A stretch of 64,000 nucleotides of DNA, from the NCBI RefSeq assembly GCF_009914755.1, contig NC_060943.1; one strand, 5' to 3'. This stretch comes from the human T2T-CHM13v2.0 reference genome, Homo sapiens. The position numbers were made by a program, and so were the translations under genes. Positions 31,701 through 34,700 of the stretch are shown piece after piece; the first letter of the stretch is position 1, and the number at the start of each line of letters is the position of its first letter. Under the pieces are notes generated by a model. The model did not search any database, had not been told where the DNA came from, and saw only the letters and a list, made by a program, of their open reading frames with translations.

Positions 31701-34700
31701 TTCAGAGCCTGGGGTACGCGGTGGCAAAGGATTCCAAGTGCTGATTCTCTGGAGAACCACAAATGGAGTGTGTTTTCCTAGACTGTTCTTAGATGTTCTG
31801 AGATACGGCACTCGGAGTGCTCCCCACACCCTCTACAGCTGAGAACAGGGACTCCTTCCCACTTGACCAGCATTCTTTGGTTTGGGTGGGATGAGCTCTA
31901 GAGCCCTTGGGCACTGCAAGGAAACTGTACATCACACTGGAGGAAGAATTGAAGCAGACGTTTGGGTTTAATGAAATGTTAATTCATGAGTAGAGTGTAG
32001 CCATTATGGTCATGGGTGCTCCCATCAGACTGCTGGTCATGCAGGTTCCCAGGACCCACACTCAGCATGAGTCAAATCTTGATAGAGTGGCTATAAAAAT
32101 GTAAATCAAAAGATTGTTAAATGTCGGCCAGGCGCGGTGGCTCACACCTGTAATCCCAGCGCATTGAGATTAATGTTAAAAAAAAAAAAAAAGAGAGATT
32201 GTTAAATGTCAAAAACTGACTGTAGTGAGGCAGTGTTTGACAGTGAAAATGCTACCCTTTGTGGGTGTAAATTGGAGTTCACGGTGCTCCCTGAGCTCTG
32301 GGGCCCTGTTGACAGCCAGTAAGATGAGTTATGAGGTCCTTGCCAACATGCTGATGCCAGCCTGTGGCATGCTTGTCTGGAGTGGGGTGCTGCCTTCTTG
32401 CAGACAGGTGGCAGGATGGAAGGAGAGCAGCAGAACTCCATGAGGATGCCGCTGCGGGGCTGCAGGGTTCTGTCCCTGCCGCCGTCCCCCCCACCCTCCC
32501 ACCACCACCGACTCCTGGGCTCTGCTATCCAGCAGATAGCACCCATGAGGAGCATGCTGACCCATGAGGTCACTTGGGTTAATTCAAACTAGGAATGTTA
32601 AGCCCACCATTGGCAGCCAGTCCTTGTTAATTCATAATGTGCTGCTGCTGCCACATCTCTAATGGAATTGCTTATTTTATTGAAAGATAGGGACTCTGGC
32701 TGTATAATGCAAGGTGTTCATTACATCGCACCTGTCTTACCTGACATTTCTAAGGAGTGAGATGATTAATAACTAGATTCTTCAAGGCCCTCTCAGCATG
32801 GGAGGGAGAGATTCTTCAAGGACCTTGCAGCATGAAAAGTGTGATCCCCATTTCAGCCTGCGTGAGATGGATGCACAAGGAAAGAAGTGGCCAGCAGTAG
32901 GAATCACGAAAGGCTTATCAAGCAAGTGACCACTGTGGTGGGCCTTTCCCGGCAGAAGCTAGGACCTTTGTTTTAAAAGACATTGTAAGGCTGGGTGTAG
33001 TGGCTCACACCTGTTATCCCAACACTTTGGGAGGCTGAGGCAGGAGGATCACTTGAGCTCAGGAGTTCAAGACCAGCCAGGGCAACATAGTGAGACCTCC
33101 TCTCTACAAAAAATAAAATTAGCCGGGCATGATGCCGTACACCTGTGCTAGCTGCCTGGGAAACTCAGGTGGGAGGATGACTTGAGCCCAGGAGGTCGAG
33201 GCTGCAGTGAAGCATGATCACGCCACTGCATTCCAGCTTGGGAGCTTGGGTTGACAGAGTGAAACCCTGTCTCAAAAAAAAAAAAAAAAAAAGAACCTTA
33301 CAAAATATGAGAAAGTTGTGACCCAAACCCCGTTATGTAGATGCAGCCACTGCAGTTGTCAGCAGAGAGGTCTTTCTGTGCAGACATACGTCTCGCCATG
33401 CACACGCATTTCTGTGTTAGGGCACAGGCTTCTGTATTAGAGGATGGGCTTTTGCACTGGATTTGAGTCCCAGCCTTTGCCTCACCTCTCACCAGCATGT
33501 GACCTTGGTCAAGTTACTAAATTGTGTGAGCCTCAATTTCTTTTTAAAGTGGTAGTGGTGGTGGAGGGTAACAGGCGTGCGTGGCATGGTTGTGAAGAGT
33601 TGATGGAATTATACACAAAGCCTTTGGGGTAGGGCATGTGTTGAGTGCCTAGTAGGTGTTACCTTCTGCAGCCTACGTTTGATTTAGCTGCACTGCAGGG
33701 GACCTCTTGGTTACTGTGGTAGCGAATGCTTGGTGTACCCAGTATTGTGGTTTGTGTGGCTGTAATGGAAGTTGTTCATTGGTCCTTGATGGACTTATGT
33801 TAGGTAGGTTGTTCAGGGATTCAGTTGCAGTGACTTTGTTTTTTAGGGAATGAAGAATGAATAATGGTTTCCTGCAGAAGAGTTAAACATGCTGACTTGG
33901 TGGTGGCTGTCGTGTGTATACATTTTGTTTTGTTTTTGATGTCTCAGACACAGTGGTATTCCTGGAAAGGCCTAGGGTGATTTTTCCACAGAGATGGAGC
34001 GTGGCATGGGTGGAGGACTTGAAAGAGACTTTGCCAGGAAGGAGATGGGGATATCTCGAAGCTTTGGAGAGCCTCTTGGCAGAGGAATGAGTAAGAAGGC
34101 CCAGTGGGCCTCAGTGGCTGGGGTCCGCCCTCTGGGGTGCAGGCTGCCAGGGTTTACCTGATGTCCCTGCTCTCTTAGAGTCAGCTGGTTTTTTTTAAGC
34201 TTTTAAAAAAGATGTTGTTTTAGACCTAGGTAAAAAATTTAGGTCTTTTAGTGTTTTATTGCTATATCAGTAGCATTATTTGTCTTTAAGTCTTTTCAGA
34301 TGGCTTTTTAAAAAATTGGCCTAAGGTTGTGCAGGCTGTGGGAATGGAAACTGCTGCGTGTACTTGACTTTCTGGCCCCCTAGGCCTGGAGAGTGTTTCA
34401 TGGCCCTCTGGCTCCCTAGGCCTGGAGCGTGTTTCAAAGCCCTGCTAATTGGGGCAGGAGTTTCCTTACCCCAGGGTGCTGTGGTGTCCAGTCCAGTTAG
34501 CAGGATGGAGTGAGTTGTGCACTTGCTGATGCCTTTGACAGAGGCATCCAGACTGACTAGAGAGGTTTTCTAAAGTTGGAAGGTCTTGAGTATTTAGGCC
34601 TATCCGTATGCAGAGAAATTATTTTTTCAGTTTTGGTTAGGTGGCAGAGCAATTTCCTCCTCTTTTTTCTTTCTTTCTTTTTTTTTTTTTTCAAGACAGA

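What the first reader, a model, noticed from the sequence alone, without database searches (positions are those of the whole stretch)
33992..34090. Hidden, intact in-frame HNRNPM exon in intron 12
Seen: a 99-nt segment with acceptor tttttccacag and donor ATGA|GTAAGA, phase 1-1 like its neighbours and stop-free. It encodes [33 protein letters not shown], which has the MERG/Gly-Met composition of the hnRNP M low-complexity region. It is too short for the ORF track and is not needed for the 730-aa protein. From memory (unverified), the paralog MYEF2 and fish hnRNP M contain a similar ER[DE]F[GA]R...G[IM].R.FG[DE] segment at this position. Inference: an ancestral exon that is now usually skipped but still splice-competent, adding 33 aa to the disordered region.
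Basis: partly seen in the sequence, partly recalled or inferred. Interest (0 to 1): 0.8.

Follow-up and report, generated by a model that had tools for sequence, protein, structure and literature searches.

The report
Ancestral HNRNPM coding exon, unannotated in human
An intact 99-base piece deep in an intron of the human splicing-factor gene HNRNPM matches a coding exon that birds and turtles use in this gene and that has a same-sized counterpart inside the sister gene MYEF2, but whether human cells still splice it in could not be tested.

Summary
Window 33992-34090 (+) is a 99-nt, stop-free, phase 1-1 unit with an AG acceptor and a GT donor in HNRNPM intron 12. Inserting it keeps the frame (730 to 763 aa). 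None of the 13 RefSeq HNRNPM transcripts uses it.

Splice signals plus open frame are not beyond chance: 27 intronic pseudo-exons in this gene do as well. Homology is what makes it real:
- All 120 listed bird and turtle HNRNPM proteins carry a 33-aa unit at this junction, and the human peptide is 20-24/33 identical to the 15 variants seen.
- Chicken protein against the window gives E 6e-8, collinear between exons 12 and 14.
- The MYEF2 locus has a collinear 99-nt, phase 1-1 counterpart.
- The sauropsid proteins lack mammalian exon 13, which sits in the same slot.

A neutral-decay simulation suggests at most about 0.15 substitutions per site of unconstrained evolution, so selection probably lasted well into mammalian history.

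Human usage was not tested. Eight of 8 mammalian protein fragments spanning the junction lack it. GENCODE, RNA-seq and mammalian genomes were out of reach.

Verdict: ancestry supported; "still splice-competent, usually skipped" plausible but unproven. It would be a new member of a known kind, lineage-specific skipping of an hnRNP disordered-region exon.

The parts
33992..34090 (+). Candidate exon '12a': 99 nt, phase 1-1, stop-free. Encodes (E)[32 protein letters not shown].
   Evidence: sequence, phase, frame kept. (chicken tblastn E 5.9e-8, tortoise E 6e-9). (20-24/33 identical to the 15 sauropsid variants). (MYEF2 counterpart).
33980..33991 (+). Acceptor: short pyrimidine run then cag (atttttccacag). 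AG at 33990-33991.
   Evidence: Matrix score 3.15, 5th percentile of 298 real acceptors. Exon 13's acceptor is at the 6th percentile.
34091..34096 (+). Donor gtaaga after exon end ..ATGA. Positions +1 to +5 match the consensus; -1 is A.
   Evidence: Matrix score 3.59, 6th percentile of 285 real donors.
33538..33991 (+). G+T-rich upstream intronic flank, including GTGGTGGTGG at 33555-33564 and ttggtggtggctgtcgtgtgtat at about 33897-33919. A possible binding platform for GU-binding repressors such as hnRNP M itself; this is inference only.
   Evidence: G+T is 0.652 in the 400 nt before the acceptor, against a gene mean of 0.546 (sd 0.036), which puts it in the top 0.8% of windows. GC skew 0.31-0.44. 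A strict GU-tract count is not enriched (2 tracts; 17% of windows have as many or more); passages of PMC8346284 say HNRNPM binds GU-rich intronic elements.
29782..29859 (+). HNRNPM exon 12, the upstream splice partner (phase 1-1). It ends ..GMNMGRIN. Sauropsid proteins read ..GMNMGRMS immediately before the cassette.
38741..38794 (+). HNRNPM exon 13 (54 nt, phase 1-1, [15 protein letters not shown]). This mammal-type exon occupies the same slot. It is itself skipped in 5 of the 13 RefSeq models and is absent from all 120 sauropsid proteins.
   Evidence: no chicken or tortoise HSP here; no MYEF2-locus hit with E<1.
41186..41988 (+). HNRNPM exon 14 (Met/Arg repeat region). This is the exon that follows the cassette directly in 111 of 120 sauropsid proteins.

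Best explanation
The segment is the human ortholog of an ancestral 33-aa coding exon of the HNRNPM/MYEF2 family. It encodes a Gly/Met/Arg-rich module of the disordered linker between RRM2 and the Met/Arg repeats.

In birds and turtles it is part of the modelled HNRNPM protein, joined exon 12 > cassette > exon 14. The MYEF2 locus holds a counterpart of identical length and phase.

In human, and in the other mammals sampled, the major mRNAs skip it and use the 18-aa exon 13 in that slot. Because frame, length and both splice dinucleotides are intact and its differences from sauropsids are few and conservative, I infer it has stayed under protein-level selection for most of mammalian history. I therefore infer it is still a low-level or context-restricted cassette exon that would add 33 aa to the disordered region, giving 763 aa with exon 13 or 745 aa without.

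Shown: structure, frame, orthology, paralogy, absence from RefSeq. Inferred: continued selection and present-day splicing.
For: Structure and frame.

Orthology:
- 139 proteins at E<=0.01 among 140 candidates. The 120 listed are 116 bird and 4 turtle entries.
- All 120 have a 33-aa unit at this junction; 86 share one sequence.
- Human is 23/33 identical to that commonest form. tblastn E 5.9e-8 and collinear.

Paralogy:
- The only other hit in the human genome lies inside MYEF2.
- That unit is 99 nt, phase 1-1, cag|AG..TTG|gtaggg, and collinear with the exon 10, 11 and 14 homologs.
- Nine columns are invariant across human, MYEF2, chicken and tortoise.

Constraint:
- Neutral simulation. The joint probability of no stop, AG and GT kept, at most 10 aa differences and no indel is 0.045 at 0.15 substitutions per site, 0.011 at 0.2 and 3e-4 at 0.3.
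- 8 of the 10 human-chicken differences have BLOSUM62 >= 0, against 44% of all possible single-base missense changes.

Modular context: exons 10-13 are all phase 1-1, and RefSeq already models skipping of exons 11 and 13.
Against: - No RefSeq transcript (0 of 13, including 10 Gnomon models) includes it.
- 8 of 8 mammalian protein fragments spanning the exon 12/13-14 junction lack it. Six read exon 12 > 13 and two read exon 12 > 14. Most look like retrocopy translations, so they reflect major germline mRNAs.
- The own-genome search found no retrocopy carrying it.
- Both splice sites score low in my matrix, at the 5th-6th percentile.
- A search with the 61-aa open frame found no named protein of 34-107 aa. 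Peptide strings occur in no searchable paper text.
- The simulation still allows roughly the whole placental-to-human branch to have been neutral (my calibration, not a tool result). It also uses the human sequence as a stand-in for the ancestor and an assumed indel rate.
- No mammalian ortholog of the segment could be examined.
Confidence: 0.5

Rival explanations
1. Silenced relic. It is the same ancestral exon, but it stopped being spliced in the mammalian, or only the primate, lineage once exon 13 took over. It is now a neutrally drifting pseudo-exon that has not yet picked up a stop or lost a splice site.
For: - 0 of 13 RefSeq models use it.
- 8 of 8 mammalian fragments lack it, and no retrocopy carries it.
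- Splice-site scores are low.
- 27 comparable pseudo-exons in the gene show that such signals alone do not make an exon.
- The simulation gives 15% joint survival at 0.1 substitutions per site and 4.5% at 0.15, so a few tens of millions of years of neutrality cannot be excluded.
Against: - Only 10 differences from the commonest sauropsid form, 8 of them conservative. Several human states agree with MYEF2 rather than with sauropsids, so few changes are left for a neutral phase.
- Exon 13 is shared by primate and rodent fragments and skipped in two ruminant ones. The two exons therefore coexisted while the old one was still constrained.
Confidence: 0.33
2. Retained for an RNA-level role rather than for its peptide. 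It could be a decoy or regulatory pseudo-exon whose recognition, or repression through the GU-rich upstream flank, influences splicing of the 8.9-kb intron 12 or the choice of exon 13. That might be part of hnRNP M feedback on its own pre-mRNA.
For: - The upstream 400 nt is the second most G+T-rich stretch of the gene.
- HNRNPM binds GU-rich intronic elements and prevents aberrant exon inclusion (passages of PMC8346284).
- Exon 13 is alternatively skipped in 5 of the 13 RefSeq models.
Against: - The conservation seen is at the amino-acid level, with exact 33-codon length and frame. An RNA element does not need that.
- The strict GU-tract count is not enriched.
- No Rfam family matches in intron 12.
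- No binding data were examined.
Confidence: 0.12
3. Chance pseudo-exon: an accidental AG...GT open frame with a Gly/Met-rich translation.
For: 27 intronic units in HNRNPM have equal or better site scores and an open phase 1-1 frame.
Against: - E 5.9e-8 to chicken and 6e-9 to tortoise HNRNPM, at the collinear position.
- Identical 33-codon length in sauropsids and in the MYEF2 locus.
Confidence: 0.01

Closest known systems
The 33-aa unit of bird and turtle HNRNPM protein models (e.g. Gallus gallus isoform X4, P0097; Gopherus evgoodei isoform X2, P0134)
   Same: - Same position, after the exon 12 homolog and before exon 14.
- Same length (33 aa).
- 20-24 of 33 residues identical across the 15 variants; shared core ..MGGG.[ED]R[DE]F[AG]R.EMG[IM]SRSFG[ED].L.RG..
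   Different: It is part of the modelled protein there, in all 120 listed entries. In human it is in no RefSeq model. Sauropsid proteins lack mammalian exon 13.
The collinear 99-nt unit in human MYEF2 (chr15:45959566-45959664, minus strand)
   Same: - 99 nt, phase 1-1, canonical AG/GT.
- Collinear with the homologs of HNRNPM exons 10, 11 and 14.
- 42-50% identity; invariant R, F, R, G, R, FG, R columns.
   Different: It is a paralog, not an ortholog. One-residue offset in the N-terminal half. That it is a constitutive coding exon of MYEF2 is my recollection only. No chr15 exon table and no MYEF2 protein was available to confirm it.
[quoted passage not shown]
   Same: An exon of an hnRNP-type splicing regulator that differs in use between mammals and other vertebrates. 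Here it lies in the Gly-rich disordered region, and it would change the regulator itself.
   Different: HNRNPM is not named in the passages I saw. Here the mammalian state looks like near-complete skipping plus a replacement exon, not regulated partial skipping. Usage in mammals is untested.
HNRNPM-repressed aberrant or cryptic exons next to GU-rich intronic elements (PMC8346284, passages)
   Same: A deep-intronic unit with usable splice sites next to a G+T-rich flank, in a long intron.
   Different: Those exons are described as aberrant. This one is an ancient, protein-conserved exon. No evidence that HNRNPM binds here was examined.
Poison or essential exons coupled to nonsense-mediated decay in RNA-binding-protein genes (PMC6547761 names an 'essential exon' of HNRNPM as a low-confidence candidate; passages)
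   Same: A conserved, non-constitutive exon inside a splicing-factor gene.
   Different: The unit is in frame with no stop, so inclusion or skipping makes no premature stop. The paper's HNRNPM exon is in a supplementary figure that I could not open.

Membership tests
Ortholog of the sauropsid HNRNPM coding exon | Significant sequence similarity at the collinear position between the exon 12 and exon 14 homologs | tested here: met
   chicken HSP 33988-34089, 67.6% identity, E 5.9e-8; tortoise E 6e-9. Both lie in order between the exon 12 and exon 14 HSPs.
Ortholog of the sauropsid HNRNPM coding exon | Same length and reading frame | tested here: met
   33 aa in all 120 listed sauropsid proteins. 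The human unit is 99 nt, phase 1-1. Sauropsid exon boundaries were inferred from proteins only; no DNA was available.
Paralog of the MYEF2 unit | Collinear unit of the same length and phase with canonical splice sites in the MYEF2 locus | tested here: met
   99 nt, phase 1-1, cag|AG...TTG|gt. Local tblastn E 2e-6; genome-wide E 1.0.
Paralog of the MYEF2 unit | The MYEF2 unit is an annotated coding exon | not testable with these tools
   Only the chr19 exon table is supplied. No MYEF2 protein was retrievable under the length rule. Peptide strings were found in no paper text.
Human alternative cassette exon | Frame-preserving, with AG acceptor and GT donor | tested here: met
Human alternative cassette exon | Present in a transcript model | tested here: not met
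   0 of 13 RefSeq HNRNPM mRNAs. GENCODE/Ensembl could not be consulted.
Human alternative cassette exon | Splice-junction reads or peptides | not testable with these tools
   Sequencing reads are off. Peptide strings were not found in paper main texts, and supplements are closed.
Poison (NMD-inducing) exon | Inclusion introduces a stop or a frameshift | tested here: not met
   99 nt, no stop, and the downstream frame is kept.
Exonised transposable element | Overlaps a repeat | tested here: not met
   nearest masked repeats are 32986-33136 and 34650-34965. Only repeats of 100 bases or more are listed.
Recursive-splicing exon | Acceptor immediately followed by a donor (AG|GT) that rebuilds a 5' splice site | tested here: not met
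   the acceptor is followed by AGATGG.
Mammal-specific skipping of an hnRNP disordered-region exon | Included in non-mammalian vertebrates | tested here: met
   120 of 120 listed bird and turtle models. That search selected for the cassette, so cassette-less sauropsid isoforms were not counted. Fish and amphibians were not seen.
Mammal-specific skipping of an hnRNP disordered-region exon | Regulated (partial) inclusion in mammals | not testable with these tools
   No mammalian transcript data. 8 of 8 mammalian fragments lack it.

The most novel reading that the evidence does not exclude
Mammals swapped one module of hnRNP M's disordered region. A new 18-aa exon 13 replaced the ancestral 33-aa exon in the main mRNA. 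The old exon was kept under purifying selection as a switchable cassette, possibly held off by hnRNP M itself through the GU-rich flank just upstream. On this reading, an unannotated, conserved protein isoform of a major splicing regulator (745 or 763 aa) appears only in particular tissues or when hnRNP M activity falls.
Probability: 0.2. Interest if true: 0.75.

Novelty: new member of a known kind. Interest (0 to 1): 0.55.

Why it matters
hnRNP M is a heavily studied splicing regulator, and its disordered region is thought to drive its assemblies. A conserved, unannotated 33-aa module would matter in three ways:
- It would add a protein isoform that current knock-down, CLIP and proteomic analyses ignore.
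- It would give a clean case of exon replacement in the disordered region of an RNA-binding protein between mammals and sauropsids.
- It would make a simple question testable: is the ancestral exon still used, where, and does hnRNP M repress it?

If it proves to be a dead relic, it is still a dated example of slow exon death.

Tried and rejected
1. Splice signals as evidence. My own matrix puts both sites at the 5th-6th percentile and finds 27 equally good in-frame pseudo-exons in the gene. It also scores the MYEF2 unit at the 2nd and 7th percentiles, and constitutive HNRNPM exons 3, 7, 8 and 11 at or near 0. The matrix was trained on only 20 gene-dense chr19 pieces and neither supports nor refutes splice competence. 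MaxEntScan was not available.

2. Finding mammalian protein models with the cassette.
- The length rule (0.55-1.75x) and the ban on typing joined sequence left no query that had both human cassette words and sufficient length.
- I tried an alignment of a crow protein plus human exon translations as separate rows (A1). MAFFT scattered the fragments, so I dropped it and did not search with it.
- The bird-region search lists only the best 120 of 139 hits. The 19 unlisted hits, which could include other taxa, were never seen.
- The last search, with the 61-aa open frame, sees only proteins of 34-107 aa and found no named candidate. Thirteen candidates of unnamed source were left out by the tool.
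- So 'no mammal with the cassette' is not shown.

3. The Atlas search with the 32-aa peptide gave no usable hit. Pfam found no family for the human or MYEF2 peptide. Rfam found nothing in intron 12.

4. Literature. The searches were:
- peptide strings (0 papers each);
- HNRNPM / MYEF2 / alternative exon (192 papers, 25 listed, none on this exon by title or abstract);
- PhyloCSF + HNRNPM (2 unrelated papers);
- hnRNP assemblies / mammalian-specific / HNRNPM;
- HNRNPM / autoregulation / cassette exon / unannotated exon;
- HNRNPM / novel exon / in-frame / conserved in vertebrates.
I found no description of this exon. This covers only the held open-access texts, not supplements.

5. The 'MYEF2 motif' of PMC5513350 (passages) turned out to be the LPxGLxxIGMGLG segment, which is HNRNPM exon 10, not this cassette.

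6. GU-rich flank. It is significant by G+T content but not by a strict GU-tract count. I keep it as a lead only.

7. The fish hnRNP M claim was not tested.
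Full report
THE OBSERVATION

One search shows ...gatttttccacag|AGATGGAGCGTGGC...GGCAGAGGAATGA|gtaagaagg. The unit is 33992-34090, 99 nt, flanked by AG (33990-33991) and GT (34091-34092).

One search shows that exons 10, 11, 12 and 13 of NM_005968.5 are all phase 1-1 (102, 45, 78 and 54 nt). Inserting the unit between exon 12 (29782-29859) and exon 13 (38741-38794) keeps a single terminal stop and gives 763 instead of 730 residues.

None of the 13 RefSeq HNRNPM mRNAs in the supplied table uses it, and it lies outside the listed masked repeats. 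The stop-to-stop frame around it is only 61 codons, 33976-34158.

IS IT MORE THAN CHANCE?

Not on its signals alone.
- I trained simple position-weight matrices on 285 donors and 298 acceptors from 20 ten-kb pieces of chr19.
- The donor is at the 6th percentile and the acceptor at the 5th percentile of real sites.
- 27 intronic units of 30-300 nt in HNRNPM, this one included, have both sites at least as good and are open in phase 1-1.
- The same matrix scores the MYEF2 counterpart at the 2nd and 7th percentiles and several constitutive HNRNPM exons near zero. It is a weak instrument here.

What lifts the unit above the other 26 is homology.

ORTHOLOGY

- A search with exon 14 returned a partial bird HNRPM protein (P0004). 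It reads ..GMNMGRMS-EMDRAMGGGFEREFGRNEMGMSRSFGETLERGI...
- Searching with that region gave 139 proteins at E<=0.01 among 140 candidates. The 120 listed are 116 bird entries and 4 turtle entries, many of them full-length Gnomon isoforms.
- All 120 carry a 33-aa unit at this place, in 15 sequence variants, and 86 share one sequence. The human peptide is 20-24/33 identical to them.
- In 111 of the 120 the unit runs straight into the start of exon 14 (GGGNASIPGIERM..).
- tblastn of chicken P0097 and tortoise P0134 against the whole window finds the unit at 33988-34089 (67.6% identity, E 5.9e-8) and 33988-34131 (E 6e-9). Both lie in order between the exon 12 and exon 14 HSPs. Neither gives an HSP at exon 13.

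PARALOGY

- A six-frame search of the human genome with the 32-aa peptide finds only itself and chr15:45959570-45959650 on the minus strand (48% identity, E 1.0 genome-wide). That place lies inside MYEF2.
- There the sequence reads ttttttcag|AGCTGT...GACTTG|gtaggg. It is a unit of exactly 99 nt whose only open frame is again phase 1-1, encoding LYRGAMTSSMERDFGRGDIGINRGFGDSFGRL.
- Against the 45-kb MYEF2 locus the hit has E 2e-6. It lies after the exon 10 and 11 homologs and before the exon 14, 15 and 16 homologs. tblastx gives the same collinear chain.
- A four-way alignment has nine invariant columns: M, R, F, R, G, R, F, G, R.
- That this MYEF2 unit is a constitutive coding exon is my recollection. 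I could not confirm it with a tool.

EXON 13

- The mammalian exon 13 peptide ([15 protein letters not shown]) occurs in none of the 120 sauropsid proteins. The cassette motif occurs in none of the mammalian fragments. Of the 136 proteins held, 120 have the cassette motif, 6 the exon 13 motif and 0 both.
- No exon 13-like hit exists in the MYEF2 locus at E<1.
- Eight mammalian fragments span the junction. P0002, P0003, P0005, P0010, P0011 and P0012 read exon 12 > 13. P0014 and P0015 read exon 12 > 14. All eight lack the cassette. Most look like translated retrocopies.
- In the sequences sampled, the slot between exons 12 and 14 is therefore filled by the 33-aa exon in sauropsids and by the 18-aa exon 13 in mammals. 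The old exon is still physically intact in human.

CONSTRAINT

- I mutated AG + 99 nt + GT neutrally, 20,000 replicates per distance. The joint probability of no stop, both dinucleotides kept, at most 10 amino-acid changes and no indel falls as follows: 0.39 at 0.05 substitutions per site, 0.15 at 0.1, 0.045 at 0.15, 0.011 at 0.2 and 3e-4 at 0.3.
- From general knowledge, not a tool: the mammal-sauropsid split is over 300 My old, and the neutral distance along the human lineage since then is several tenths of a substitution per site. About 0.15 roughly matches the branch from the placental ancestor.
- So the exon was constrained for most of synapsid and mammalian history. That probably includes a time when exon 13 already existed, since primate and rodent fragments share exon 13.
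- 8 of the 10 human-chicken differences are conservative (BLOSUM62 >= 0), against 44% of all possible single-base missense changes. At several differing columns the human residue equals the MYEF2 residue, which leaves few human-lineage changes.
- Caveats: the simulation starts from the human sequence, the indel rate is assumed, and no mammalian ortholog was seen.

SURROUNDINGS

- The 400 nt before the acceptor are 65% G+T, against a gene mean of 54.6% (sd 3.6). Only 0.8% of windows reach this, and all of those lie here or just after exon 2. GC skew is 0.31-0.44.
- A strict (G1-2 U1-2)x3 tract count is not enriched: 2 tracts, with 17% of windows as high.
- Passages of PMC8346284 state that HNRNPM binds GU-rich elements in long introns and prevents aberrant exon inclusion. 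Self-repression is therefore a lead, no more.
- Rfam finds nothing in intron 12. Pfam has no family for the peptide.

WHAT COULD NOT BE DONE

- No RNA-seq, GENCODE or mammalian genomes were available.
- No protein query could combine human cassette words with a length that reaches 745-763 aa. The alignment workaround failed, and the 61-aa frame search found nothing in its 34-107 aa range.
- 19 of the 139 hits were never listed.
- Literature searches found no description of this exon. Supplements are closed.

COMPARISON WITH THE KNOWN

- The unit is not a poison exon: it is in frame with no stop.
- It is not an exonised repeat.
- It is not a recursive-splice exon: the acceptor is followed by AG, not GT.
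- It resembles the reported mammal-specific splicing changes in PTBP1 and in hnRNP A and D family members. I know these only from passages of the review PMC12992808 that cite Gueroussov 2015 and 2017.
- PMC6547761 mentions a low-confidence 'essential exon' of HNRNPM. That is a different kind of event, and its figure is a supplement I could not open.

VERDICT

- Ancestry (ortholog of a sauropsid coding exon, with a same-sized counterpart in MYEF2): firmly supported.
- Present-day splicing in human: unproven.

I put 0.50 on a still-used, low-level or context-specific cassette, 0.33 on a silent relic, 0.12 on an RNA-level role and 0.01 on chance.

Novelty: new member of a known kind, subject to a GENCODE check. 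Interest: 0.55.

Noticed in passing
window 38741-38794 (HNRNPM exon 13): The 18-aa exon 13 peptide is absent from all 120 bird and turtle HNRNPM proteins and has no hit in the MYEF2 locus. It looks like a lineage-specific exon that took the ancestral exon's slot. Five of the 13 RefSeq models skip it.
   Followed up: partly
window 26940-38794 (exons 10-13): Four consecutive small exons (102, 45, 78, 54 nt) are all phase 1-1. RefSeq models skip exon 11, exon 13, or both. Bird models skip the exon 10 homolog (e.g. P0097). A chimpanzee partial model (P0016) joins exon 9 to exon 13. The disordered region is built of freely combinable modules.
   Followed up: partly
window 11158-11600 (intron 2, just after exon 2): This is the most G+T-rich 400-nt stretch of the gene (up to 0.69). 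It is the only place besides the candidate's upstream flank that reaches 0.65.
   Followed up: no
window 19113-19120 (exon 4): An annotated 8-nt coding micro-exon. Its donor scores at the 2nd percentile in my matrix.
   Followed up: no
P0014 (Bos hybrid) and P0015 (Moschus): Retrocopy-like proteins read ..GRIN directly followed by the exon 14 glycine run. They derive from exon 13-skipped mRNAs, so exon 13 skipping occurs in ruminant germlines.
   Followed up: no
P0022 and four other bird proteins: Five of the 120 sauropsid proteins continue after the cassette with VCCTGQLPAKS.. before the exon 14 sequence. This suggests an alternative donor or a retained stretch downstream of the bird exon.
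   Followed up: no
window about 34372-34445: Two adjacent near-identical copies of about 35 nt (..ccctaggcctggag.gtgtttca..gccct..), roughly 280 nt downstream of the donor.
   Followed up: no
output: Thirteen candidates of 34-107 aa sharing at least three 5-residue words with the 61-aa human frame exist in the database. They are of unnamed or sample-only source and the tool withheld them, so what they are is unknown.
   Followed up: no
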